Positions 573 through 23,470 of a stretch of 64,000 nt of DNA are shown here, in pieces (the stretch's first letter is position 1; the number at the start of each line of letters is the position of its first letter). This DNA is from Escherichia phage UGJNEcP3. The stretch lies in the sequence record OV876907. One strand, given 5' to 3'. The notes beneath the pieces were generated by a model that saw only the letters and a list, made by a program, of their open reading frames with translations, was not told the DNA's origin and searched no databases. Position numbers and translations under genes: made by a program.

Positions 573-1737
573 CTAAATCCATCTCTTCTAAATCGTTTTC
601 GATATCAGCAGCGCTTTGGGTATTTCCACCTAATTTAACAGCAACGTTCTTAGAGACGCGAGAGTTAATAAGGTCGTTAACCGCATCGTCAACTTCTTTA
701 ATAGAATTAATTGCACCGAGCTTATACTTATTCTCGATTGCTTCACGGAACGGAGCATGTTTAAACAGCGGTCCCCAGAACTCAACGCAATCGGTAGCTT
801 TAGCACGCCATGCTTTTTCTTCTTGAACCATTTCACCTGTGGTTTCGTCAAGGAATGCACGATTATACCAGCCAGCTTTAGGTTTCACGACAAAGCCGAT
901 ATCAGTAGCCATTTCAAGCAATCCACTGAATGGGTCGATACCACCTTCGAAGTTAACGGTGATAGGGAACGTTGATTTCTCTTTAACCGTACGAGATTTC
1001 TCGGCCTTCAGTGTGAAGTCATAACCTGTGAGCTCGGTACCATCTTTAACCTGACGTTTAGAGATAAAGAATACGGTAGAAGCAGAGTACAGAATACCAG
1101 TACCACCACCCATAATCTCTTTAGGATACATTCCACCAATTTCCATAGCCGTGTGGTTAATTGCTACACAAGGAATATCCTTGATGGTCAGATAAGGCGT
1201 TACGATACGGAACAGAGATTTCAGTGACTTAGCACGAGTCATATCACCTACAACTTTCTCGTTCAAAGCATCTTCGGTTTCTTTCTTAGAAGCAGTGTTA
1301 CCAATAGAGTCGATAAAGATAATAACCTTTTCGCCACGAGTAATTTCTTCTAACTGGTTGGTCATATCAACTTTAAGCTGTTCGACTGACTGGATTGGGG
1401 TATGAACCACACGTTCCAAATCAACACCCATCGAACGGAAATAAGATTCTGAAGCACCAAACTCAGAGTCATAGAACAAACAAATTGCGTCTGGATATTT
1501 CTTCATATATGCCGCAACCATGGTAAGTCCAAACAACGTTTTAAAGTGCTTAGATGGAGCAGCAAAGATTGTCAAACCTGATTGTAAGCCTGCATTCAAC
1601 GCACCACCCAATGCAATATTCAGCATAGGGATACGAGTAGGAACTTCGTCACGACCATTAAACAATTTAGATTTGGTCAGGTCGGCAGTCATTTTAGAAG
1701 TAGAAGCTTTAATCAAACGGGATTTTAAATCAGACAT
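565..1737 (-). CDS. uvsX: UvsX RecA-like recombinase
   Basis: 390 aa; MSDLKSRLIKASTSK N-terminus and overall sequence closely match T4 UvsX as recalled; length matches. Confidence 0.95.
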   Translation of the reverse strand: MSDLKSRLIKASTSKMTADLTKSKLFNGRDEVPTRIPMLNIALGGALNAGLQSGLTIFAAPSKHFKTLFGLTMVAAYMKKYPDAICLFYDSEFGASESYFRSMGVDLERVVHTPIQSVEQLKVDMTNQLEEITRGEKVIIFIDSIGNTASKKETEDALNEKVVGDMTRAKSLKSLFRIVTPYLTIKDIPCVAINHTAMEIGGMYPKEIMGGGTGILYSASTVFFISKRQVKDGTELTGYDFTLKAEKSRTVKEKSTFPITVNFEGGIDPFSGLLEMATDIGFVVKPKAGWYNRAFLDETTGEMVQEEKAWRAKATDCVEFWGPLFKHAPFREAIENKYKLGAINSIKEVDDAVNDLINSRVSKNVAVKLGGNTQSAADIENDLEEMDLDD

Positions 1738-1784
1738 TATATTTTTCCATAGGCATCATTATATTTTACTCACGTTTTAAGATA

Positions 1785-1825
1785 GGGTAATTATATCACT
1801 TCACATTTACAGCGTTAAAGGACCA
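1785..1825 (-). promoter_or_regulatory. Sigma70-type promoter with extended -10 (TGATATAAT) upstream of uvsX
   Basis: Reverse complement of about 1790-1798 is TGATATAAT; TTAACG-like -35 at 17-bp spacing. Confidence 0.5.
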
Positions 1826-2708
1826 CGTCCTCATAACTTGGCATTTCGTGCTCAGAATGGATATGGGCACCGAAATAAATGAATTCAGCTAGACCAGGAT
1901 GGAATACTAAACCAGGATTCTCGTGATAAATGATATGAGGTCTTGATTTCAGAATCTGATAATATTCAACCTTACTAGGTTTGAATTTAATAATCTCTAC
2001 ATCAGGACGATAGTCTTCACGTTTAAATGAATCATTCGGGTCGGTGATATAAAGGCGAGAACCTTCAGCTGCAGCTTGGTCTACAACTCTTTCGAATTGA
2101 TAACATTTATCAGAGATACGGAATGGATGGAAAATACCATCAATTTTAATAGGCGCTAGACCTTCAGAGTAACGCTCAATTACTGCGGGATTAATTACCT
2201 TTTGGTCTACAAAAATCTTATCAGAGGACGCACCTCGTGACACCAGGACGTCTTTCTGGCATTGATTCAGGACTGTAGTATAAATCGAACGTTCAACTGA
2301 GGACACGTCGGTATCAATAAACTCGTCGATATAATAACGAGGAACTTCAGGGTCCATTGTAATGTTAAAGTTGAATTGTACAGTCTGAGTGCCATCATAA
2401 CCTGTGATATCGGTTACTAATCCTGAGCAGTCATAGTATTCGATTAACGAATCAACAACGAACTCGTTTTCAGACCAAAAATGTTTACGAGTTTCATAAG
2501 CATTTTCTTTATACCAAAGCGGTACAAAATTCAGTTCAGGAAATAATTCAATGCATTCTTTGATATCGCTCGAATTTCTAGGATAAGCCAGATAATCACC
2601 TGGGCAAGCACGGTTTAAATGGAGTTGAAAATTACCGTCCTTAAGGACGGCATATTCACCTGTTTCGTAACTACGCATACTGAAAATAGGAACGATAAAC
2701 AGACTCAT
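1815..2708 (-). CDS. Hypothetical protein at the beta-glucosyltransferase position; candidate DNA base-modifying transferase
   Basis: 297 aa; no resemblance to T4 beta-gt as recalled; ATG overlaps the stop of the upstream TS-family gene (ATGA); last gene of the five-gene coupled operon. Confidence 0.6.
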   Translation of the reverse strand: MSLFIVPIFSMRSYETGEYAVLKDGNFQLHLNRACPGDYLAYPRNSSDIKECIELFPELNFVPLWYKENAYETRKHFWSENEFVVDSLIEYYDCSGLVTDITGYDGTQTVQFNFNITMDPEVPRYYIDEFIDTDVSSVERSIYTTVLNQCQKDVLVSRGASSDKIFVDQKVINPAVIERYSEGLAPIKIDGIFHPFRISDKCYQFERVVDQAAAEGSRLYITDPNDSFKREDYRPDVEIIKFKPSKVEYYQILKSRPHIIYHENPGLVFHPGLAEFIYFGAHIHSEHEMPSYEDVVL

Positions 2709-3403
2709 TTCAGGAATCCTCGAACATAGTCAAAATCACGTTCAAATACATGTGCACTAACCATAGTATGGGAATACGTACCCAGACCAACACCACACTG
2801 TTCAGCAATAAAGGCCATCAGTTTACCCTGCAGATAGAAATCCAGCTGCATAACGATAGCACAGTTCTGTGAACGCATATGAGTGTGTGCATACAGACGT
2901 CCATCACGAATATAATATGTCACCGAATCGGTACAAGGATATTCTAAGGATTCGTCAGAATCAAGGAGGGCTTGGTCTTGTTCTTGGAGAATCTGGAACA
3001 CAACTCTTCTTGAGTTAGGCTTCTCTTTAAGCTCTTTAAGTAAGGCTGGGAGTTGGGCCACAATTCGAGGTCCATAGAAAGTGTTGAAGTTTGCAGGCAA
3101 TACGTCACTTTTCGGCTTATCAATGAACTTAGCAACATTAGGGTATTCCTTAAATGCTTCGGCGGCGTCAGTACCACCGGAAATCATAAACTTCCAGAAA
3201 GATTCGGCATAATCATAGTTGATACGATTAATACGAGGGTCGGTGAATTTATAGGTGCTTGCATCCAGAACTTCAACTGAAGCCGAACCAATTTCATAAC
3301 AACGACCGATACGAGAATCAACTGCAAACTGTGGAGCTTCCAGGATTTCTTCGTTCATTTGTTTAAATGCATTTTCAAAACTAACAGCGGTAATGTGTTT
3401 CAT
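2705..3403 (-). CDS. 42: Thymidylate-synthase-family pyrimidine hydroxymethylase, dCMP hydroxymethylase-like (divergent)
   Basis: 232 aa; PNSRR, YPCT (candidate catalytic Cys) and MRSQNCAIVMQLD motifs align with the TS/dCMP-hydroxymethylase pattern; Asp at the position that is Asp in T4 dCH and Asn in TS; syntenic with T4 gene 42 but far more divergent than neighbouring core genes. Confidence 0.75.
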   Translation of the reverse strand: MKHITAVSFENAFKQMNEEILEAPQFAVDSRIGRCYEIGSASVEVLDASTYKFTDPRINRINYDYAESFWKFMISGGTDAAEAFKEYPNVAKFIDKPKSDVLPANFNTFYGPRIVAQLPALLKELKEKPNSRRVVFQILQEQDQALLDSDESLEYPCTDSVTYYIRDGRLYAHTHMRSQNCAIVMQLDFYLQGKLMAFIAEQCGVGLGTYSHTMVSAHVFERDFDYVRGFLK

Positions 3404-3936
3404 TTATTCACCTCATAATTAATGTATTCATTAAGACGTTTTAATTCTACCATATCGACGTTAAGCAAGTTATTATGGCCGTCGTGATTTAAGATTTTAA
3501 ACACGTTTTCAAAACATGTTTCATATTGGCGGATAGTTAGGTTGAACTCATCTTTAGTCAGTTTAATGAGGTCATCTTCAAAGTCTTTATCCAACGGATT
3601 ACGGGTTAAAATAACCTCAATGATATTGAATTCTTTTTTGAAATCAATCCAATCTGCTAGTTCTACATAAGGGTCCATTTCACCACGAAGGAATCCCGAG
3701 TAAACAATATTACTAGGATAACCACGGTCTAGGATGTAAACGAAATTAGGGTCTAAAAACTTATACAACGTCTCGACTAAAGCCTTGTCATTATCAGTTC
3801 CTAACGAAATACATTTACCATTAATCTTTTTAGGAAAATCAATAAGACGATATTTCTTATCAGATAAAAGGGTTTCGATTAAAGTAGACTTCCCGGAATT
3901 ATCCGGGCCGTCTATAACAATGATTTTTGGATTCAT
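3400..3936 (-). CDS. P-loop kinase, polynucleotide-kinase-like
   Basis: 178 aa; Walker A IVIDGPDNSGKST at the N-terminus, similar in layout to the T4 Pnk kinase domain; ATGA-coupled to neighbours on both sides. Confidence 0.7.
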   Translation of the reverse strand: MNPKIIVIDGPDNSGKSTLIETLLSDKKYRLIDFPKKINGKCISLGTDNDKALVETLYKFLDPNFVYILDRGYPSNIVYSGFLRGEMDPYVELADWIDFKKEFNIIEVILTRNPLDKDFEDDLIKLTKDEFNLTIRQYETCFENVFKILNHDGHNNLLNVDMVELKRLNEYINYEVNK

Positions 3937-4292
3937 GGATGATAGGCCTTATAACTATCAAGAGTTCCTTCGCGAACCATTTCTTTAAAGTGGTCAGGAC
4001 GAATTGCTCGGTCATCGATGATAAAAGTATAACTCGGCTTGTGTGTAAGCAAATTGTGATATTTCAATCCAATTTTTTCAAGGTTCTTAACCAATGCAGG
4101 AACTACTTCAACCAAGATTCGGCCTGGGCCGCATGAAGTCATACCACGGGCAGTGAACAATGTAATCTCATGACCTTCATCGTACAGCTTATTAATCATG
4201 GACACCATTTCGGTGTCCGGTTTAAAGTTTTCATAATCACGGTCATCTTGCCAGTGAGTAATGGTATTATCGATGTCAAAGCACAAATGCAT
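3933..4292 (-). CDS. HAD-superfamily phosphatase (Pnk-phosphatase/GmhB-like)
   Basis: Motifs FDIDNT (DxDxT), LFTAR and IIDDR; start placed at the second ATG (4290-4292), which has a GGAAGAAA Shine-Dalgarno, rather than the ORF-track start at 4307. Confidence 0.7.
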   Translation of the reverse strand: MHLCFDIDNTITHWQDDRDYENFKPDTEMVSMINKLYDEGHEITLFTARGMTSCGPGRILVEVVPALVKNLEKIGLKYHNLLTHKPSYTFIIDDRAIRPDHFKEMVREGTLDSYKAYHP

Positions 4293-5965
4293 TAAATTTT
4301 CTTCCATTGTTTGTGGAGTTCAGTAGAACCTGTAGGTTTATATTTTACACCAGTTTCCTGGTCAAGCAAAACCCACTTATCAGGGCATCGAGTGATAATT
4401 TGGGCCGTAATAGGGTCACGAACTTCATCGACAAATTCACCTGTAATAAGCTTACGCTTACGAGGATGCCGCTTCAGCAGCACACTCAGTTGATATAGAC
4501 CGTTGTAATAAGCGCCCAGAGCTTTCAGAGGGTTATTTTTAAAGTAACCTGCCAACGCCATCCAGATAACAGCAATCCAGAGCTTGTGCTTAAATGTACA
4601 CATTGGAATATCATCTAAAGGCATAACCTTTTCAATATCAACGAATACTCGAGTTCCATTACGAGTTAAGCCACCCCATAGAGGGTCAGAGTTAAATTTG
4701 TCATAACCATCGATAGAATAAAGCACCTTAGCTTCATCATAAATCGCAGGGCCTTTAGAACTATTACCAAAATAACCGCGTGGGTCGATGATTTTAATAT
4801 CACCTTCGTCCGACAGCATAATATTACTGTAGTGCGGGTCGCCGTGAATAAGTTGGTACGGTTCTTTATGTTCAGACAGAATTTCTAGTGCATGACGAAG
4901 AAGTTTTTCTGGGTCGCCTACCTTAAAGTCATTGACATGGGTAATGCCCTGTGGAGCAAAGCCTTCAATCAATCCAGCAATAGAAGCATTACGAATAAGG
5001 ACCTTGTCCAATACTTCTTTCTTAACATCGGAATACCATTGCTCATCGGATGGATTATCGATAGTTCCACCAAATGAACGTAATGCACTAATGACCTTAT
5101 AAACCATGAGGACTTTAGTTTCTTTAGACATAAACCGATAGGCATCTGCCATGGTGCGACCAAAGATACGTTCCATTTTAATGAATTCACCTGGAGCAAA
5201 GTCTACAATGCTCGGAACAAATTCAGAATCAATAGAATTATACCAATTGATTTCTTTAGATTGGATTTCTTTACCTAATTCGTTGGTAGGTACTTTAATA
5301 GCCAGATTCTCAGTGAACTCTAATTTATTAAATTCACGGTTAATTTCAGAATCTTCATGGGCCTTAGCCAGTTTCAATTTGTCACCGACATCAACTACAA
5401 AGTCCAGCTTACGTTCGGTCAAATGGACCATCGAATCTAGGTTATCAGCAAGGTCTTCGCCATAATTAGAACGGTTGAAGCCTGTCCAATTAGCCACCTG
5501 ATACAAACCAACCACACCACCGCCAGTACCAATTTCACGCAAGTACGGTTCTTCAAATGTAAAACGACAGTCAGTCCCGTAGGTATAGCAATAGTCGTTA
5601 TCCCACTCAACTTTATGACCCTCAGGAATGATGTCACACCAGTTAAACAAGACGTTATGGCCAATGATATCTTCAGCAATGCAATCGATAGCATGAGCTG
5701 AACCATTAGCCACATCTACGTTACGAATAGTGAATTTAGGCTTATCACTATTAATCATGTTAATGGATTTAATATAGCCTTTAACGAGGTCGTTAAATTT
5801 GCTGTGAATAACCAGAATAATTTCATCTGATTGGTTACTATACAAATCATACAAATGTTTTAATACAGTATGTTGTTTGTAGTTAACCAATACCTTCGGG
5901 ATTTCGTTAGTAATTGGATACAACCGTGAGCCAAGACCCGCGCCTAAAATAACAACCTTTTTCAT
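4292..5965 (-). CDS. Bifunctional sugar-phosphate nucleotidyltransferase / APH-type kinase fusion
   Basis: N-terminus KKVVILGAGLGSRLYPIT is the RmlA/GlmU-type G-x-G-x-R-L nucleotidyltransferase signature; C-terminal half has HGDPHYSNIM and IIDPRG (aminoglycoside/choline/sugar-1-kinase fold). Start trimmed to MKKVVIL (ATG 5963-5965, SD GAGGAA) because a TATAAT -10 overlaps the ORF-track start. Confidence 0.85.
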   Translation of the reverse strand: MKKVVILGAGLGSRLYPITNEIPKVLVNYKQHTVLKHLYDLYSNQSDEIILVIHSKFNDLVKGYIKSINMINSDKPKFTIRNVDVANGSAHAIDCIAEDIIGHNVLFNWCDIIPEGHKVEWDNDYCYTYGTDCRFTFEEPYLREIGTGGGVVGLYQVANWTGFNRSNYGEDLADNLDSMVHLTERKLDFVVDVGDKLKLAKAHEDSEINREFNKLEFTENLAIKVPTNELGKEIQSKEINWYNSIDSEFVPSIVDFAPGEFIKMERIFGRTMADAYRFMSKETKVLMVYKVISALRSFGGTIDNPSDEQWYSDVKKEVLDKVLIRNASIAGLIEGFAPQGITHVNDFKVGDPEKLLRHALEILSEHKEPYQLIHGDPHYSNIMLSDEGDIKIIDPRGYFGNSSKGPAIYDEAKVLYSIDGYDKFNSDPLWGGLTRNGTRVFVDIEKVMPLDDIPMCTFKHKLWIAVIWMALAGYFKNNPLKALGAYYNGLYQLSVLLKRHPRKRKLITGEFVDEVRDPITAQIITRCPDKWVLLDQETGVKYKPTGSTELHKQWKKI

Positions 5966-5984
5966 TATCTGTTCCTCAAGTGAA

Positions 5985-6020
5985 TGTAGGTACATTATAC
6001 ACTATTTTTAATAAATTGGT
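5985..6020 (-). promoter_or_regulatory. Promoter (-10 TATAAT) heading the five-gene modification operon
   Basis: Reverse complement of 5994-5999 is TATAAT, about 30 nt upstream of the nucleotidyltransferase-kinase ATG. Confidence 0.45.
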
Positions 6021-6025
6021 ATTGC

Positions 6026-6526
6026 TTAAATCTTATCTTTACCGATTTCAATACACTGTTCTATTGCCGCCGGTACTTTGGTCTTGAGCTTATCGATTTG
6101 TTTCTTATAATCACGAGCTTTACCGAAGCTCTCGGTTTCGAGCATTTCGTAATAACGAGCCTCGTGGATGGAAATCTGTAGATTGATATGGTTTACGCAC
6201 ATCGCATACAGTTTCTGCTTTTTGTACAAATCATCTTGGCGCTTCATTTCTGCCTGGTGTTTGGCTAGTACCGCTTCACGCTTAGACTCTTGTTCACGTT
6301 GGAATTCGATTTCCCTTTGAGCATATTTTGCACAGTTATTACCACATTGATTATTAGCTCGGGTATACACAAGTCCAGAACCGGCACGGAATTTCATTTC
6401 GCCATCGAATTGTTTCTGTTCAGCTGCGATACGAGCTTTACCAACTTCATCGGCTGAAACTGCATCACCATATTGGACCGCACAACCTGATAGGAGCATA
6501 CTCATTGCGATAATTAACTTTTTCAT
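6026..6526 (-). CDS. Putative lipoprotein
   Basis: 166 aa; N-terminus MKKLIIAMSMLLSGC is a signal peptide with lipobox; SD GAGGAT upstream. Confidence 0.65.
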   Translation of the reverse strand: MKKLIIAMSMLLSGCAVQYGDAVSADEVGKARIAAEQKQFDGEMKFRAGSGLVYTRANNQCGNNCAKYAQREIEFQREQESKREAVLAKHQAEMKRQDDLYKKQKLYAMCVNHINLQISIHEARYYEMLETESFGKARDYKKQIDKLKTKVPAAIEQCIEIGKDKI

Positions 6527-6533
6527 AATATCC

Positions 6534-6671
6534 TCAATTAAAACAGTTATACTTAATTTGTGCTATAAGAATAATCCATCCTATGATTAATGTCGGAATC
6601 ATTGGCGGAATTGCCACTGCCCAATAAACGGTAAAGGCAGCCATTATAAGAAATAAAATAATTATCTTCAT
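6534..6671 (-). CDS. Small hydrophobic membrane protein (imm.1-like position)
   Basis: 45 aa ORF found by hand (MKIIILFLIMAAFTVYWAVAIPPMIPTLIIGWIILIAQIKYNCFN); ATG overlaps the imm stop (ATGA); below the ORF-track size cutoff. Confidence 0.35.
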   Translation of the reverse strand: MKIIILFLIMAAFTVYWAVAIPPMIPTLIIGWIILIAQIKYNCFN

Positions 6672-6904
6672 TGTTTAACGATAATGATTTGTGCGGTTGA
6701 TTTACGTTCAGCGACGATAGCCCAGATTAAAGCCACTACCCAACCAATCATCGTCCATCCTAACAGGAGATTAAGGAAGAAGATTCCGACATTGTTACGA
6801 GTGCCTCGCAGAAGAGCTAGAATCCATGGTAAGAAGTAAGCGATGAACATCATAACCAGAGAACCGAATCCTAAAACACCAGCACTAACGATTAAAGCTT
6901 CCAT
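6668..6904 (-). CDS. imm: Superinfection immunity protein Imm-like membrane protein
   Basis: 78 aa, two predicted TM helices with the N-x-x-x-I-F-x-x-N-x-L-L-G-W-T-x-I-G-W-x-x-A-L-I-W-A pattern typical of the Imm family; directly downstream of gene 43 as in T4. Confidence 0.7.
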   Translation of the reverse strand: MEALIVSAGVLGFGSLVMMFIAYFLPWILALLRGTRNNVGIFFLNLLLGWTMIGWVVALIWAIVAERKSTAQIIIVKQ

Positions 6905-6929
6905 TGTAATTTCCTCTTAAGTAGTTGTT

Positions 6930-6968
6930 AGGAAGGATAATACCACGTTCCATGTGGTATGTAAACAC
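6930..6968 (-). promoter_or_regulatory. Early-type promoter (GTTTAC -35, TATTAT -10) upstream of imm
   Basis: gtaaac at 6961-6966 and ataata at 6937-6942 on the plus strand, read as GTTTAC-N18-TATTAT on the minus strand. Confidence 0.5.
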
Positions 6969-9680
6969 TTAAAAGTCAAACATGTCAAATAATGTTGCTT
7001 TTTTCTCGTAGTCGATTTTAGCAGACTCGGTGAAACCGGTAAGAGGTTTGATAAAGGTCTTTTGGAACAATACGTTGTAGTCCATCCAACGGAGGACTTG
7101 GTCACGAATCTGAACTGGAAGTTCAATACCTGATGGCCATGCCATACAAGCTTCACCGAACGGGTTGCCTTCTTTAAGTGGAAGTACATATACCTTTTCA
7201 CCGTCGACGATACGTGGCATAGTCAAATCACCAGCAGAAGCACGCATGTAAGCTAAGCAACCTTTGATGTGATACGGGCATTTAGAACCAGGGAATCCAC
7301 CTTCATTATATTTCTCGATGTTGTTAGCACTGGATACTGCTGCAATGCTTACATAGTTTAGTTCGTTAAATTCCTTATTAAACTGTTTGAAATATTCTTG
7401 CAAAGAGGCCTCGCCTTCCTGAAGCATACGACGGATACATTCTTTCAGAGCTTTCTGAACTGCTTTAGGTGTACTTGATTTCTGAGTTTCGAGACCCATG
7501 ATTTTCAAGTGTGGTTCAGCATAACGAGTACCTTCCATGTCCCAAACGTTCAGTGCATAACGTTTCTTGCCTGTCCAGAATCCACCAAGACCTTTAGAAC
7601 CAAGTGGAGGTCCTGCGATAGCTTCTCGGTCCATGAACATCAAGTGCTGTTTGTTGTTCATGTATTCACACATCTCACGGAAGCCTGCATCAATAGCAGG
7701 TTCCATACGTTCACGTGCAAATTTATCTAAGAAGTCGACCCAGTGGTTAGTATCACGGAATTTTTCTTCGCCAACTTTATTGATGATGGCATCTGCCTTA
7801 ACATAAATGGAGTCAGTATCACCATAGAGCACGAACTTCTGGTTTTCAGTCTTGCACACTCTATTCAGATATTCGTTAACCTTACGTTCAATCCATTGGA
7901 GGGCCATTTGACCAAACAGTGTGATTGCAGTTGCGTTCCTGAGGTCATAATAACGGAACCATACGTTACCAAGTGCACCATAAAGGGAGTTGATAAGCAA
8001 CTTACGGTTAATCTGAGCAGTGTTACCTGCAACTTCAGTGAGCTCGGCTTTCTTCAACATTTCTCTTAAAGAAGGCCCTGACAGTGCTTTAATCTGGGCT
8101 TTGATTTCGTCAGAGAAGTCAAAACGATAATCGATATCTAGTGGACTATCAACTGAGAGATTAGGATTTTCCAATGCTTCTTTAATTAACTCACCATTAC
8201 GTTGAGCTGCAAGCATGTAACCTTTATGTTCTTTACGCTGCAAGAATACCTTGGTGATTTCTGTCGGAATCACACCTTCACGGTCTTTATAATACATCAT
8301 GCCGTTAGGAGAGCAACTGTAGGTGTCGCTAGGACGCTGAGCAGTTCCGGCAATATATTCATGTATCGGTGCGTTGGCGAATGTCCCTGCGATGGTCTCT
8401 GGGCTTATATTCACTTGCCGAATGATACTCGGGTACAGAGATGTAAGGTCAAAACTCATTACATATTTGTAAGCGTTAGGAATAGGTTCCTTAACGAAAG
8501 CACCAGGATAAGGTTGGACCACGTGTGAACGACCCTGTGGAATTACCTTGCCTTGTTCTTTAAGACTATTAAAGATAATAGCGTCCCAAGTCTTAATTGG
8601 ACTGAACACCGACTGAATCTGCATCTTGGCATAATAACCCATGTCCAAACTCAGAAGAATGAACTGACGTTTCATATCAATCTGCACTACACGATATACG
8701 TCGATAATGTTATAGGAAATATATCGTTGGTGGTTCGTCTCACGTAACTTAGAGATTGGACCATCATATTTCAACTTACCTACTTTCAATTCATATTCAG
8801 AAACATAATCCAGAGAATAAGAAGGCTGGTTGGTAAAGCTGAATTTTTTATACAGGTCGATATAATCCAGAACAGAGATACCGAACAGTGTAATAATTTC
8901 ACGAGCACCGTACATGTTCTCAATAACTTTAACACGAGTTTTACGATGCGGGCTTAATCGCTTAGCAGTGTTCTCACCGAACAGATTTTTCAGACGGTTA
9001 TAAACGTACGGCACGTCAAATGACTCAACGTTCCACCCAGTCAAAATCACAGGAGTTTTCTGTTGCCAGAAATTCAGGTACTCAAGCATCATTTCTTCTT
9101 CAGAATTAAACGAAAGATAAACGATTTTGTCAATGATTTCCTGTGGAACTTCGTCACCACCTTCGTCTTGGAGTTTCTCAGCGATTTTAATCGACCACTC
9201 TTCAACAGTACCATAAGGCGAAACTAAAAGGTCGAATACATAGAATTTATCGTCAATCGAGTCGTAGTGGGTAATGGCATCGATAGGATGTTTAGCCTGA
9301 GCTGGTTCAGGGAATCCATCAGGAGATGTTACCTCGATGTCGAAGTTAGCAATACGAATCTTAGAAGAATCATATTTGATTTCTTTACGATAGGTATCAG
9401 ACAAATAGGCTAATTTATAGTCGTCCATACCCAGGGCTTCGAGACCCATATCGTCCATACGTTTCATCCATTGGGATGCATCACGCATAGAGTCGAATTC
9501 TTTCTTAACACAACCCTTACCATAGATATCAATGTATTTTACGGCTTGCTCTGGATTGGCATGCATAAACATTGTAGGCTTGTATGGAACTTCACGACTA
9601 CGTTCGTTACCATTTTTATCGATGTAACGTTCGAGAATATTATCACCGATTTGTTCGACTGTCAAATAGAATTCTTGCAT
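6969..9680 (-). CDS. 43: DNA polymerase gp43 (family B)
   Basis: Start trimmed to MQEFYLTVEQIGD (ATG 9678-9680, SD AAGGAAA); sequence closely matches T4/RB69 gp43 as recalled (FDIEVT exonuclease motif, YGDTDS). Confidence 0.97.
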   Translation of the reverse strand: MQEFYLTVEQIGDNILERYIDKNGNERSREVPYKPTMFMHANPEQAVKYIDIYGKGCVKKEFDSMRDASQWMKRMDDMGLEALGMDDYKLAYLSDTYRKEIKYDSSKIRIANFDIEVTSPDGFPEPAQAKHPIDAITHYDSIDDKFYVFDLLVSPYGTVEEWSIKIAEKLQDEGGDEVPQEIIDKIVYLSFNSEEEMMLEYLNFWQQKTPVILTGWNVESFDVPYVYNRLKNLFGENTAKRLSPHRKTRVKVIENMYGAREIITLFGISVLDYIDLYKKFSFTNQPSYSLDYVSEYELKVGKLKYDGPISKLRETNHQRYISYNIIDVYRVVQIDMKRQFILLSLDMGYYAKMQIQSVFSPIKTWDAIIFNSLKEQGKVIPQGRSHVVQPYPGAFVKEPIPNAYKYVMSFDLTSLYPSIIRQVNISPETIAGTFANAPIHEYIAGTAQRPSDTYSCSPNGMMYYKDREGVIPTEITKVFLQRKEHKGYMLAAQRNGELIKEALENPNLSVDSPLDIDYRFDFSDEIKAQIKALSGPSLREMLKKAELTEVAGNTAQINRKLLINSLYGALGNVWFRYYDLRNATAITLFGQMALQWIERKVNEYLNRVCKTENQKFVLYGDTDSIYVKADAIINKVGEEKFRDTNHWVDFLDKFARERMEPAIDAGFREMCEYMNNKQHLMFMDREAIAGPPLGSKGLGGFWTGKKRYALNVWDMEGTRYAEPHLKIMGLETQKSSTPKAVQKALKECIRRMLQEGEASLQEYFKQFNKEFNELNYVSIAAVSSANNIEKYNEGGFPGSKCPYHIKGCLAYMRASAGDLTMPRIVDGEKVYVLPLKEGNPFGEACMAWPSGIELPVQIRDQVLRWMDYNVLFQKTFIKPLTGFTESAKIDYEKKATLFDMFDF

Positions 9681-23161: not shown

Positions 23162-23470
23162 TTAACGGTCACACCACCAACTCGATACTTCAAAATCAGG
23201 CTCGCCGTTTTCCCAATACCAAGGGCCAACTGGATGCCAATCGCCATGCTCATCTTCTTCAAATTCTTCAGATTCTAGCCCAACGTATTGCCATTGGACT
23301 TCATAAGCAGTGCCACCGATTACAACAGTATTCTCGCCATATGGGTTAGCCACAACAAAATCAATACCTTCTGCTTTAGCCAACCAAACCATATATTCGT
23401 ATAGCTTATATTCCAGGTCATCTTCGGTACCATCACCTAGAAAAATAGTCTGTTCATTTAATTCAATCAT
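23162..23470 (-). CDS. Hypothetical acidic protein
   Basis: 102 aa, Trp- and acid-rich. Confidence 0.45.
   Translation of the reverse strand: MIELNEQTIFLGDGTEDDLEYKLYEYMVWLAKAEGIDFVVANPYGENTVVIGGTAYEVQWQYVGLESEEFEEDEHGDWHPVGPWYWENGEPDFEVSSWWCDR

What the first reader, a model, noticed from the sequence alone, without database searches (positions are those of the whole stretch)
4292..5965. Fusion of an RmlA-type nucleotidyltransferase to an aminoglycoside/sugar-kinase-fold kinase
The N-terminus carries G-A-G-L-G-S-R-L-Y-P-I-T, the classic sugar-1-phosphate nucleotidyltransferase signature. The C-terminal half carries H-G-D-P-H-Y-S-N and I-I-D-P-R-G, the catalytic-loop pattern of the APH/choline-kinase/anomeric sugar-kinase fold. 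Such a fusion would phosphorylate a small hydroxyl compound and then nucleotide-activate it in one protein. I know of no T4 counterpart.
Basis: partly seen in the sequence, partly recalled or inferred. Interest (0 to 1): 0.85.

Follow-up and report, generated by a model that had tools for sequence, protein, structure and literature searches.

The report
Phage UDP-arabinose synthesis enzyme (AfhE-type)
This gene encodes a real two-domain enzyme (sugar kinase fused to a nucleotidyltransferase) that T4-like phages use to make the activated arabinose they attach to their DNA as protection against bacterial nucleases, but the enzyme family was predicted in 2018 and characterised biochemically in 2026, so the finding is correct but not new.

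Summary

The window is a Dhakavirus (100% identical to Escherichia phage UGJNEcP4). The gene sits between uvsX and DNA polymerase in an operon-like run. Its neighbours are a translationally coupled HAD phosphatase, a P-loop kinase, a thymidylate-synthase homologue with the published 5-hydroxy-dCMP-synthase signature, and a homologue of DNA arabinosyltransferase 1.

This is the arabinosyl-5-hydroxycytosine DNA-modification cluster of RB69-type phages. The protein is the orthologue (43% identity) of RB69 gp52:53 and Bas46_146, which are equated in the literature with AfhE of phage HY126. AfhE is a D-arabinose-5-phosphate 1-kinase plus UDP-D-arabinose pyrophosphorylase.

The only residual novelty is that the Dhaka/Marfa/Braga-type clade lacks its own arabinose-5-phosphate isomerase, the U32-family gene and the second transferase. 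I found no chemical data for its DNA.

The parts
4292..5965 (-). Whole gene (557 aa plus stop): AfhE-type bifunctional sugar kinase / nucleotidyltransferase
   Evidence: ORF. Pfam NTP_transferase + APH. PHROG 4098 E 3e-269. 42.7% identity over full length to Bas46_146. AF2 pLDDT 91.1, pTM 0.86.
5351..5965 (-). N-terminal sugar-1-phosphate nucleotidyltransferase domain (aa 1-205). Includes signature GAGLGSRLYPIT-x3-PK (5894..5944), NWCD111 (5633..5644) and VDVGDKLK (5372..5395).
4475..5350 (-). C-terminal APH/choline-kinase-fold kinase domain (aa 206-497). Includes K224, E238, catalytic loop HGDPHYSN (4823..4846) and metal-binding IIDPRG (4775..4792).
4295..4474 (-). C-terminal extension of about 60 aa (aa 498-557), conserved in the T4-like phage homologues that carry it; function unknown
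   Evidence: Present in 21 of the 22 T4-like-phage-type rows of the alignment (P0059 lacks it), including two more distant ones (P0061, P0064). Absent from the 13 jumbo-phage-type homologues. pLDDT is lower here, 67-86.
5973..5977 (-). Shine-Dalgarno GAGGA, 7 nt before the ATG at 5965
   Evidence: Read from the sequence.
3933..4292 (-). HAD-family phosphatase (AfhF-type), 119 aa, starting MHLCFDIDNT (DxDxT motif). Its ATG overlaps the stop of the upstream gene (TAATG, 4290..4294).
   Evidence: Sequence. 61.5% identity to Bas46 phosphatase. PDB 9iqw E 2e-51. NCBIfam TIGR01689 capsule biosynthesis phosphatase E 6e-14, below its cut-off. PHROG 1238.
3400..3936 (-). P-loop nucleotide kinase (thymidylate-kinase-like), 178 aa
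   Evidence: PHROG 761 E 1e-38. 37% identity to Bas46_140. Weak P-loop Pfam/NCBIfam hits only. Role in the pathway is not established.
2705..3403 (-). Thymidylate-synthase homologue of the 5-hydroxy-dCMP synthase type, 232 aa
   Evidence: Pfam Thymidylat_synt E 5e-14. 78.8% identity to Bas46_142. PDB 9iqu/9iqc E 1.5e-125. The published D169N signature and N177D are both present (signature from PMC13326640).
1815..2708 (-). Homologue of DNA arabinosyltransferase 1 (RB69 gp46:47 / Bas46_141), 297 aa
   Evidence: 66.7% identity over full length to Bas46_141. PHROG 3891 E 1e-158. No Pfam, NCBIfam or PDB sequence hit. The role is taken from PMC13326640 Table 1.

Best explanation
The gene encodes the Dhakavirus orthologue of AfhE, the bifunctional enzyme that makes the activated sugar for arabinosylation of phage DNA.

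Proposed sequence of events:
1. D-arabinose-5-phosphate is taken from the host (KdsD/GutQ), because this phage has no isomerase of its own.
2. The C-terminal APH-fold kinase domain uses ATP to phosphorylate the anomeric C1 hydroxyl, giving arabinofuranose-1,5-bisphosphate.
3. The HAD phosphatase, encoded by the translationally coupled downstream gene, removes the 5-phosphate.
4. The N-terminal RmlA/MurU-type nucleotidyltransferase domain condenses arabinofuranose-1-phosphate with UTP to give UDP-D-arabinofuranose.
5. The neighbouring glycosyltransferase transfers the sugar onto 5-hydroxycytosine in phage DNA. That base is made as 5-hydroxy-dCMP by the neighbouring thymidylate-synthase homologue.

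The resulting arabinosyl-5-hydroxycytosine shields the genome from restriction and CRISPR nucleases.

Shown here: the domain architecture, conservation of the catalytic residues, orthology of all five cluster genes, and genome-wide absence of the isomerase, the U32-family gene and the second transferase.

Inferred from published work on homologues: the substrates, the order of steps, UDP as the carrier, and the DNA product. With only one transferase, the product is probably a single arabinose per cytosine.
For: - Architecture and fold.
- Catalytic residues of both domains are invariant across 36 homologues.
- Full-length orthology to the Mosigvirus protein, which is annotated as a UDP-arabinose biosynthesis enzyme.
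- PMC13326640 equates RB69 gp52:53 and DLP3 gp82 with HY126 AfhE (A5P kinase + UDP-D-Ara pyrophosphorylase) and the adjacent HAD protein with AfhF. It lists Dhakaviruses among the lineages with the syntenic cluster.
- Thomas 2018 cites the Dhakavirus IME08 homologue.
- Neighbours: phosphatase 61%, ThyA homologue 79% with the D169N signature, GT1 67% identical to Bas46. Solved structures of the Mosigvirus-type phosphatase and hydroxylase match strongly.
- Stop/start overlap with the phosphatase gene.
- Independent genomic linkage. The isomerase co-occurs with this gene in about 270 of 367 phage genomes. A SIS protein sits directly upstream of a 33%-identical homologue on a jumbo-phage-like contig. 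Single polypeptides exist that fuse HAD + SIS + NTase + kinase.
- Close relatives by sequence come from phages with measured pentose/arabinose-cytosine DNA: Serratia 92A1 and Shewanella Thanatos-1 (PMC13326640; PMC12838424 abstract).
Against: - There is no biochemical or DNA-composition data for any Dhakavirus in the literature I could reach.
- The protein is only about 43% identical to the Mosigvirus form and sits on the longest phage branch of the family.
- The AfhE sequence itself and the primary paper (He et al. 2026) were not available. The link to AfhE therefore rests on a secondary description, and on my inference that HY126 is Mosigvirus-type.
- This clade lacks the phage isomerase found in nearly all other carriers. 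A different sugar-phosphate supply cannot be excluded.
- PMC13326640 itself gives two orders of steps: Table 1 has phosphatase first then kinase on free arabinose, while the text has kinase first.
- Nucleotide specificity (UTP) is not deducible from the sequence analyses done here.
Confidence: 0.85

Rival explanations
1. Same pathway and product but a different order of steps. The HAD phosphatase first dephosphorylates arabinose-5-phosphate to free arabinose. The kinase domain then acts as an anomeric sugar kinase on free arabinose, and the NTase domain immediately uses the arabinose-1-phosphate. The two domains would then catalyse consecutive steps, as in AmgK-MurU.
For: Table 1 of PMC13326640 annotates the proteins this way: 'dephosphorylates Araf5p to Ara', 'phosphorylates Ara to Araf1p'. 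The closest structural analogues of the kinase (APH, choline kinase, fructosamine kinase) act on unphosphorylated hydroxyl compounds. A fusion of two consecutive enzymes is the commoner pattern (my own knowledge).
Against: The text of the same paper, citing the in-vitro work on HY126, states that AfhE phosphorylates Araf5P to Araf1,5P and that AfhF then removes a phosphate. The HAD protein resembles bisphosphate phosphatases of the GmhB type according to that paper. Nothing in my sequence analysis discriminates between the two orders.
Confidence: 0.07
2. The Dhaka/Marfa/Braga-type enzyme has shifted specificity. Lacking a phage isomerase, it activates a different, abundant host pentose phosphate (for example ribose-5-phosphate) or uses a different nucleotide, so the DNA carries a sugar other than D-arabinofuranose.
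For: The divergent enzyme subclade coincides with the set of phages that lack the isomerase, the U32-family gene and the second transferase. The enzyme is the second most diverged of the five shared cluster proteins between Dhakavirus and Mosigvirus, after the P-loop kinase: 43% against 61-79% for the phosphatase, GT1 and the ThyA homologue. Residues next to the catalytic loop differ: HGDP-HY-SN versus HGDP-NF-SN.
Against: All catalytic and most substrate-proximal invariant residues are kept. Divergence is spread evenly over both domains. Several clade-specific residues (G12, S13, V85, H91, G150) are shared with the jumbo-phage outgroup, at least one member of which has a SIS isomerase next door, so they look ancestral rather than newly derived. 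The transferase and phosphatase remain 61-67% identical to the arabinose-pathway proteins. The enterobacterial hosts make arabinose-5-phosphate for Kdo synthesis via KdsD (established knowledge).
Confidence: 0.06
3. The protein is not part of DNA modification. It would be a LicC-LicA-type (CDP-choline) or MurU-AmgK-type (UDP-MurNAc salvage) fusion that alters host envelope metabolism.
Against: The gene context is nucleotide and DNA modification, not envelope. There is tight co-occurrence with, and fusion to, arabinose-5-phosphate isomerase and the HAD phosphatase. Published biochemistry exists on the orthologous system. Sequence similarity to LicC/MurU is only at superfamily level, 15-20% identity.
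Confidence: 0.02

Closest known systems
AfhE of Escherichia phage HY126 (He et al., Nat Chem Biol 2026; known to me only through PMC13326640)
   Same: Same two-domain architecture (N-terminal nucleotidyltransferase, C-terminal kinase). Same partner (HAD phosphatase AfhF next door). Same cluster (5-hydroxy-dCMP synthase, arabinosyltransferase).
   Different: I could not obtain the AfhE sequence. PDB entries that appear to come from that work (9iqc, 9iqu, 9ir2, 9iqw) are Mosigvirus-like, so identity to the window protein is probably about 43%. The window's phage lacks the isomerase, U32-family and second-transferase genes.
RB69 gp52:53 (ORF53_52c), Bas46_146, DLP3 gp82
   Same: Full-length orthologues: 42.7% identity, 100% coverage, E 1e-129 to Bas46. 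Same position between DNA polymerase and uvsX. Computationally assigned the same two activities.
   Different: The window protein belongs to a separate, early-branching subclade (Dhaka 98-100%, Marfa about 80%, Proteus/Providencia about 72%). Gene order in the cluster differs, with the P-loop kinase between the phosphatase and the ThyA homologue instead of next to uvsX.
MurU + AmgK (Pseudomonas MurNAc recycling) and LicC + LicA (phosphocholine pathway)
   Same: The same pair of folds doing the same pair of chemistries: an APH/choline-kinase-fold kinase makes a phosphate ester that an RmlA-type nucleotidyltransferase converts to an NDP-derivative. MurU, LicC and LicA are top structural matches.
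   Different: They are separate proteins (or fused only in some bacteria), act on consecutive steps without an intervening phosphatase, use different substrates, and share only 12-20% identity.
Nucleotide-heptose pathway: GmhA (SIS isomerase), HldE or HddA (kinase), GmhB (HAD phosphatase), HldE or HddC (nucleotidyltransferase)
   Same: Identical pathway logic: ketose-phosphate isomerase, anomeric kinase giving a bisphosphate, HAD phosphatase removing the distal phosphate, then nucleotidyltransferase. E. coli HldE is likewise a bifunctional kinase/nucleotidyltransferase whose two steps are separated by the phosphatase (established knowledge). HddC is the best sequence-profile match of the NTase domain (E 2e-12). 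The phosphatase is reported to resemble GmhB.
   Different: HldE's kinase is of the ribokinase (PfkB) fold and its transferase of the cytidylyltransferase fold, so the resemblance to HldE is analogy, not homology. The substrate is a heptose, not a pentose.

Membership tests
AfhE-type bifunctional arabinose-5-phosphate kinase / UDP-arabinose pyrophosphorylase of phage arabinosyl-5-hydroxycytosine clusters | N-terminal sugar-1-phosphate nucleotidyltransferase domain with G-x-G-x-R-L-x-P...P-K signature | tested here: met
AfhE-type bifunctional arabinose-5-phosphate kinase / UDP-arabinose pyrophosphorylase of phage arabinosyl-5-hydroxycytosine clusters | C-terminal APH/choline-kinase-fold kinase domain with H-G-D-x4-N catalytic loop and I-D-P metal-binding motif | tested here: met
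AfhE-type bifunctional arabinose-5-phosphate kinase / UDP-arabinose pyrophosphorylase of phage arabinosyl-5-hydroxycytosine clusters | Full-length homology to the described members (RB69 gp52:53, Bas46_146, DLP3 gp82 type) | tested here: met
   42.7% identity over 561/561 aa, E 1e-129 to Bas46_146. 44% to Acinetobacter DLP1/Stupor-type proteins. PHROG 4098 E 3e-269.
AfhE-type bifunctional arabinose-5-phosphate kinase / UDP-arabinose pyrophosphorylase of phage arabinosyl-5-hydroxycytosine clusters | Direct sequence comparison with AfhE of HY126 itself | not testable with these tools
   The primary paper and sequence are not held. No solved structure of the bifunctional enzyme is in the PDB copy.
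AfhE-type bifunctional arabinose-5-phosphate kinase / UDP-arabinose pyrophosphorylase of phage arabinosyl-5-hydroxycytosine clusters | Adjacent AfhF-type HAD phosphatase | tested here: met
   Downstream gene 3933..4292 with DxDxT motif and overlapping stop/start. 61.5% identity to the Bas46 phosphatase. PDB 9iqw E 2e-51.
AfhE-type bifunctional arabinose-5-phosphate kinase / UDP-arabinose pyrophosphorylase of phage arabinosyl-5-hydroxycytosine clusters | Cluster contains a 5-hydroxy-dCMP synthase (ThyA homologue with D169N signature) | tested here: met
   Window 2705..3403 has N at the D169 position and D at the N177 position. 79% identical to Bas46 and to PDB 9iqu.
AfhE-type bifunctional arabinose-5-phosphate kinase / UDP-arabinose pyrophosphorylase of phage arabinosyl-5-hydroxycytosine clusters | Cluster contains a DNA arabinosyltransferase | tested here: met
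   Window 1815..2708 is 66.7% identical over full length to Bas46_141, the RB69 gp46:47 'arabinosyltransferase 1' homologue. Transferase activity itself was not tested.
AfhE-type bifunctional arabinose-5-phosphate kinase / UDP-arabinose pyrophosphorylase of phage arabinosyl-5-hydroxycytosine clusters | Phage-encoded arabinose-5-phosphate isomerase (RB69 gp55 type) supplying the substrate. This is a feature of the cluster as described for RB69/DLP3, not of the enzyme itself. | tested here: not met
   No homologue anywhere in the 170.6-kb genome at E<=1. The isomerase is missing across the whole Dhaka/Marfa/Braga-type clade. Host KdsD/GutQ is the presumed source (inference).
AfhE-type bifunctional arabinose-5-phosphate kinase / UDP-arabinose pyrophosphorylase of phage arabinosyl-5-hydroxycytosine clusters | Enzymatic activities: ATP-dependent C1 phosphorylation of D-arabinose-5-phosphate, and UTP + arabinofuranose-1-phosphate to UDP-arabinofuranose | not testable with these tools
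   Needs recombinant protein assays. Reported only for HY126 AfhE.
AfhE-type bifunctional arabinose-5-phosphate kinase / UDP-arabinose pyrophosphorylase of phage arabinosyl-5-hydroxycytosine clusters | Virion DNA contains arabinosyl-5-hydroxycytosine | not testable with these tools
   No nucleoside analysis of a Dhakavirus was found in the held literature.
HldE (bifunctional heptose kinase/adenylyltransferase) | Ribokinase (PfkB)-fold kinase domain and cytidylyltransferase-fold transferase domain | tested here: not met
   The domains here are APH-fold and RmlA-type, and no PfkB or CTP_transf_like hit was found. The resemblance is in pathway logic only.
LicCA / LicC+LicA phosphocholine activation | Genomic association with choline uptake or phosphocholine transfer genes, and choline-kinase family membership at sequence level | tested here: not met
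   The context is DNA-modification genes. Similarity to LicA and LicC is structural only, 11-15% identity. No Pfam Choline_kinase hit at E<=0.1.

The most novel reading that the evidence does not exclude
The Dhaka/Marfa/Braga-type phages (81 database records) run a stripped-down five-gene version of the pathway. It has no phage isomerase, no U32-family gene and only one transferase, together with an early-branching, 43%-identical form of the bifunctional enzyme. The most novel reading not excluded is that this form activates a different pentose phosphate drawn directly from host metabolism (for example ribose-5-phosphate), so that these common coliphages and Klebsiella phages carry a cytosine-linked sugar not yet described. 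A milder version is that they make arabinosyl-5-hydroxycytosine but depend strictly on host KdsD/GutQ, which would be an exploitable host dependency.
Probability: 0.08. Interest if true: 0.55.

Novelty: already known. Interest (0 to 1): 0.2.

Why it matters
Arabinosylated 5-hydroxycytosine is a recently resolved DNA hypermodification. It makes T4-like phages resistant to many restriction enzymes and CRISPR nucleases, and sensitive to some type IV systems. [quoted passage not shown]

For this window the practical value is annotation. In the roughly 60 Dhakavirus-clade records listed, the gene is labelled 'hypothetical protein' wherever it is annotated. Its neighbours carry misleading labels ('phosphoheptose isomerase', 'thymidylate synthase').

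The finding does not open a new question, because the family has been predicted (2018) and characterised (2026). The one open point is whether the isomerase-less Dhakavirus clade makes the same modification and depends on host arabinose-5-phosphate. That matters for phage-therapy candidates of this genus.

Tried and rejected
- Primary sources. He et al. 2026 (DOI look-up), and searches for AfhE/HY126 and for Mahler et al. 2025, found nothing held. No supplements are held for PMC13326640. The pathway description is therefore second-hand.
- Sequence search of the PDB with the protein and with its family profile gave only superfamily-level NTase hits and marginal kinase hits (RIO2 E 0.035). Fold comparison was needed for the kinase half.
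- I first labelled the 30-33%-identical homologues 'cellular'. Their contigs (310-316 kb, gyrase/topoisomerase, UvrD, NinX, many small ORFs) look like jumbo phages, so I withdrew that label.
- Substrate switch in the Dhakavirus clade. I looked for evidence through per-domain identity, a neighbour-joining tree and clade-specific residues. Divergence is uniform and many differences are ancestral states, so there is no positive evidence. It is kept only as a low-probability rival.
- The promoter/terminator scan of 1600..7100 found no more sites than shuffled sequence (17 against 17.5 expected). No operon boundaries are claimed from it. The TATAAT at 5994..5999 is noted but unverified.
- Two scripts failed because several loci are stored in one file. 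No result was taken from them.
The active-site geometry is argued from secondary-structure order and fold matches only.
Full report
**What is there.** The window is a T4-like phage. Its first 12 kb encode UvsX, gp43 DNA polymerase, RegA, clamp loader and sliding clamp. It is 100% identical to Escherichia phage UGJNEcP4 (genus Dhakavirus), record positions 23229..87228.

The flagged region is one gene on the minus strand. The mechanical ORF runs 4292..5995, but the true start is the ATG at 5965:
- A GAGGA Shine-Dalgarno lies 7 nt upstream.
- The ATG at 5995 lies inside a TATAAT hexamer.
- All homologues begin M-K-K.
- The GenBank CDS maps to 4292..5965.

The product is 557 aa.

**Domain and fold evidence.**
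- Pfam finds NTP_transferase (aa 3-100, E 2.4e-8) and APH (aa 346-417, E 1.2e-5), both above their curated cut-offs.
- A 36-sequence alignment reaching down to 30% identity keeps the catalytic residues of both domains invariant. In the transferase these are G10, R14, L15, P17, P23, K24, D111 and D192-G-D195-x2-K198. In the kinase they are K224, E238, H374-G-D376, N381 and I393-D-P-R-G-Y-F-G400.
- An AlphaFold2 model built on that alignment is confident (pLDDT 91.1, pTM 0.86).
- In the model, K224 lies in a strand and E238 in the following helix. The HGDxxxxN loop is followed by two short strands and then D394. This is the canonical order of a protein-kinase-like active site.

I could not measure distances because the model coordinates are not exposed.

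**Context.** The genes downstream on the same strand are, in order:
- A HAD phosphatase. Its ATG overlaps the stop codon of the flagged gene (TAATG), and it begins MHLCFDIDNT.
- A P-loop thymidylate-kinase-like protein.
- A thymidylate-synthase homologue.
- A 297-aa protein with no Pfam match.
- uvsX.

Compared with the Mosigvirus Bas46 cluster, which its depositors annotated as UDP-arabinose biosynthesis, the identities are:

| Protein | Identity to Bas46 |
|---|---|
| ThyA homologue | 79% |
| 297-aa protein (RB69 gp46:47, 'arabinosyltransferase 1') | 67% |
| HAD phosphatase | 61% |
| Bifunctional enzyme | 43% |
| P-loop kinase | 37% |

The ThyA homologue carries the published predictor of 5-hydroxy-dCMP synthases, Asn at the E. 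coli ThyA D169 position. It also carries Asp at the N177 position, which gives cytosine specificity. The phage's separate, genuine thymidylate synthase has D and N at those positions (signature from PMC13326640).

**What the literature says.**
- Thomas et al. 2018 (PMC6024577) showed that RB69 ORF053c and ORF052c are one 561-residue gene. They noted full-length homologues, including gp43 of the Dhakavirus IME08, and proposed a role in UDP-arabinose synthesis together with an arabinose-5-phosphate isomerase.
- Lee et al. 2026 (PMC13326640) showed that RB69 and Acinetobacter phage DLP3 carry arabinosylated 5-hydroxycytosine, not hydroxymethylcytosine. They showed that the ThyA homologue is a flavin-dependent 5-hydroxy-dCMP synthase, and they modelled RB69 gp52:53 and DLP3 gp82 as an N-terminal nucleotidyltransferase plus a C-terminal kinase.
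- Lee et al. equate these proteins with AfhE of phage HY126 (He et al., Nat Chem Biol 2026). [quoted passage not shown] The adjacent HAD protein AfhF is described as a Mg-dependent phosphatase that converts arabinofuranose-1,5-bisphosphate to the 1-phosphate.
- The same paper lists Dhakaviruses, Marfaviruses and Bragaviruses among the lineages with the syntenic cluster.

I could not obtain He et al. or Mahler et al. 2025. The mechanism is therefore taken second-hand.

**How close is the window protein to the characterised one?**
- PDB entries 9iqc, 9iqu and 9ir2 ('thymidylate synthase') match the window's ThyA homologue at E 1.5e-125. Their sequence is almost the same as Bas46's.
- PDB entry 9iqw matches the phosphatase at E 2e-51.
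- From this I infer that the HY126 system is Mosigvirus-type, so the window enzyme is about 43% identical to AfhE. This is an inference, because the PDB copy gives no organism.
- No structure of the bifunctional enzyme or of the first transferase has been deposited.

**Independent support for the pathway from genome context.**
- The isomerase gene occurs in 270 phage records, against 367 for the bifunctional gene.
- On a 316-kb jumbo-phage-like contig, a SIS-domain protein lies immediately upstream of a 33%-identical homologue.
- Metagenomic proteins of 922-946 aa fuse HAD, SIS, nucleotidyltransferase and kinase in one chain. They sit beside glycosyltransferases or a sulfotransferase.
- The closest relatives outside the Dhakavirus clade include Serratia phage 92A1 and Shewanella phage Thanatos-1. 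Arabinosylated or pentose-modified cytosine has been reported for both (PMC12838424 abstract).

**What is particular to this window.**
- A genome-wide tblastn of the 170.6-kb phage finds no homologue of the Mosigvirus arabinose-5-phosphate isomerase, of the 386-aa Peptidase_U32-family gene (RB69 gp50), or of the second arabinosyltransferase (RB69 gp3).
- The rIIA-topoisomerase interval, where RB69-type phages keep that second transferase, holds only three tiny ORFs.
- The per-genus shortfall of isomerase-carrying records matches the membership of the Dhaka/Marfa/Braga-type enzyme clade: Escherichia 39, Enterobacteria 5, Shigella 1, with Klebsiella and Proteus missing from the isomerase list. 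The lack of an isomerase is therefore clade-wide.
- That clade is an early, long branch inside the T4-like group, with mean identity of 45% to the others against 52-60% among them.
- I looked for signs of a changed substrate and found none. Divergence is even across both domains. Several clade-specific residues (G12, S13, V85, H91, G150) are shared with the jumbo-phage outgroup and so look ancestral.

The simplest reading is a minimal five-gene pathway. It draws arabinose-5-phosphate from the host's KdsD/GutQ and, having one transferase, adds a single arabinose. This is inference. I found no nucleoside analysis of any Dhakavirus.

**Comparison with known systems.**
- In fold terms, the protein is a fusion of a MurU/LicC/RmlA-type transferase with an AmgK/LicA/APH-type kinase.
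- In pathway logic, it parallels nucleotide-heptose synthesis (GmhA isomerase, kinase, GmhB phosphatase, nucleotidyltransferase). There, E. coli HldE is likewise bifunctional, with a phosphatase acting between its two steps.
- HldE uses different folds, so that resemblance is analogy. The logic of the heptose pathway is from my own knowledge.

**Verdict.** One refinement applies: a separate phosphatase acts between the two domain reactions, and the kinase substrate is a sugar phosphate.

The finding is not novel. The fusion was described in 2018, its Dhakavirus homologue was cited then, and the family was characterised in 2026. Its value for this window is correct annotation, because in the Dhakavirus-clade records listed the gene is labelled 'hypothetical protein' wherever it is annotated. 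There is also a modest open question about the isomerase-less clade. Interest 0.2.

Noticed in passing
window 4295..4474 (-), aa 498-557 of the flagged protein: A C-terminal extension of about 60 residues (consensus ...TKxPxKWxLxDxETGxxYxP...W). It is present in 21 of the 22 T4-like-phage-type rows of the alignment (P0059 lacks it), including the more distant P0061 and P0064, and absent from the 13 jumbo-phage-type homologues. It has no family match and lower model confidence (pLDDT 67-86). Its role (oligomerisation, or docking to the phosphatase or transferase?) is unknown.
   Followed up: partly
window 6026..6526 (-) and 6537..6656 (-): Where Mosigviruses encode the arabinose-5-phosphate isomerase next to the DNA polymerase gene, this phage has a 166-aa protein with a lipoprotein-like N-terminus (MKKLIIAMSMLLSGC; PHROG 1754, function unknown). 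Next to it is a small ORF 55% identical to the 47-aa Bas46_147.
   Followed up: no
window 3933..4292 (-) and 2705..3403 (-): Database labels for the neighbours are misleading. The HAD phosphatase is called 'phosphoheptose isomerase' (PHROG 1238 and many GenBank records). The 5-hydroxy-dCMP-synthase-type protein is called 'thymidylate synthase' or 'dCMP hydroxymethylase', although it carries the D169N/N177D signature.
   Followed up: yes
L001 11129..12289 (Bas46_144, the RB69 gp50 homologue); absent from the window's phage: The Mosigvirus-only gene is a genuine Peptidase_U32 family member (Pfam E 7e-11) with a faint UbiU-like hit. From my own knowledge, U32-family proteins include oxygen-independent hydroxylases (UbiU/UbiV) and the RNA C5-hydroxylases RlhA and TrhP. 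It could be an anaerobic route to 5-hydroxycytosine that complements the O2-dependent flavin enzyme. If so, Dhakaviruses would lack that backup. This is pure speculation and was not tested.
   Followed up: partly
L006 7297..9665; L007 8001..9659: Homologues at 30-33% identity sit on 310-316-kb contigs that look like jumbo phages (GyrB/topoisomerase IV, UvrD helicase, NinX, Fapy-DNA glycosylase, many small ORFs). One has a SIS-domain protein immediately upstream. This suggests NDP-arabinose-type DNA glycosylation in uncultured jumbo phages.
   Followed up: partly
L008 9001..11775; L009 14..2854: Single polypeptides of 924-946 aa fuse HAD phosphatase + SIS isomerase + nucleotidyltransferase + kinase, which would be the whole route from ribulose-5-phosphate to NDP-arabinose. 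They lie beside multi-domain glycosyltransferases (GT11/GT2/GT25) or a sulfotransferase, which points to use of the same sugar donor in glycan synthesis outside phages.
   Followed up: partly
window 3400..3936 (-): The P-loop thymidylate-kinase-like gene is the least conserved shared member of the cluster (37% to Bas46). It has moved: here it lies between the phosphatase and the ThyA homologue, whereas in Mosigviruses it lies next to uvsX. Its substrate is not established in the literature I could read.
   Followed up: no
window 5994..5999 (-): A perfect TATAAT hexamer lies about 29 nt upstream of the gene's start codon and overlaps the spurious upstream ATG. It is a possible promoter -10 element for the cluster. 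The consensus scan did not report it, and overall it found no more sites than chance.
   Followed up: no
PDB entries 9iqc, 9iqu, 9ir2, 9iqw (matched from window 2705..3403 and 3933..4292): Recently deposited structures, named only 'thymidylate synthase' and 'capsule biosynthesis protein', are near-identical to the Mosigvirus 5-hydroxy-dCMP synthase and AfhF-type phosphatase. They would serve as templates for the window's neighbours (79% and about 60% identity).
   Followed up: partly
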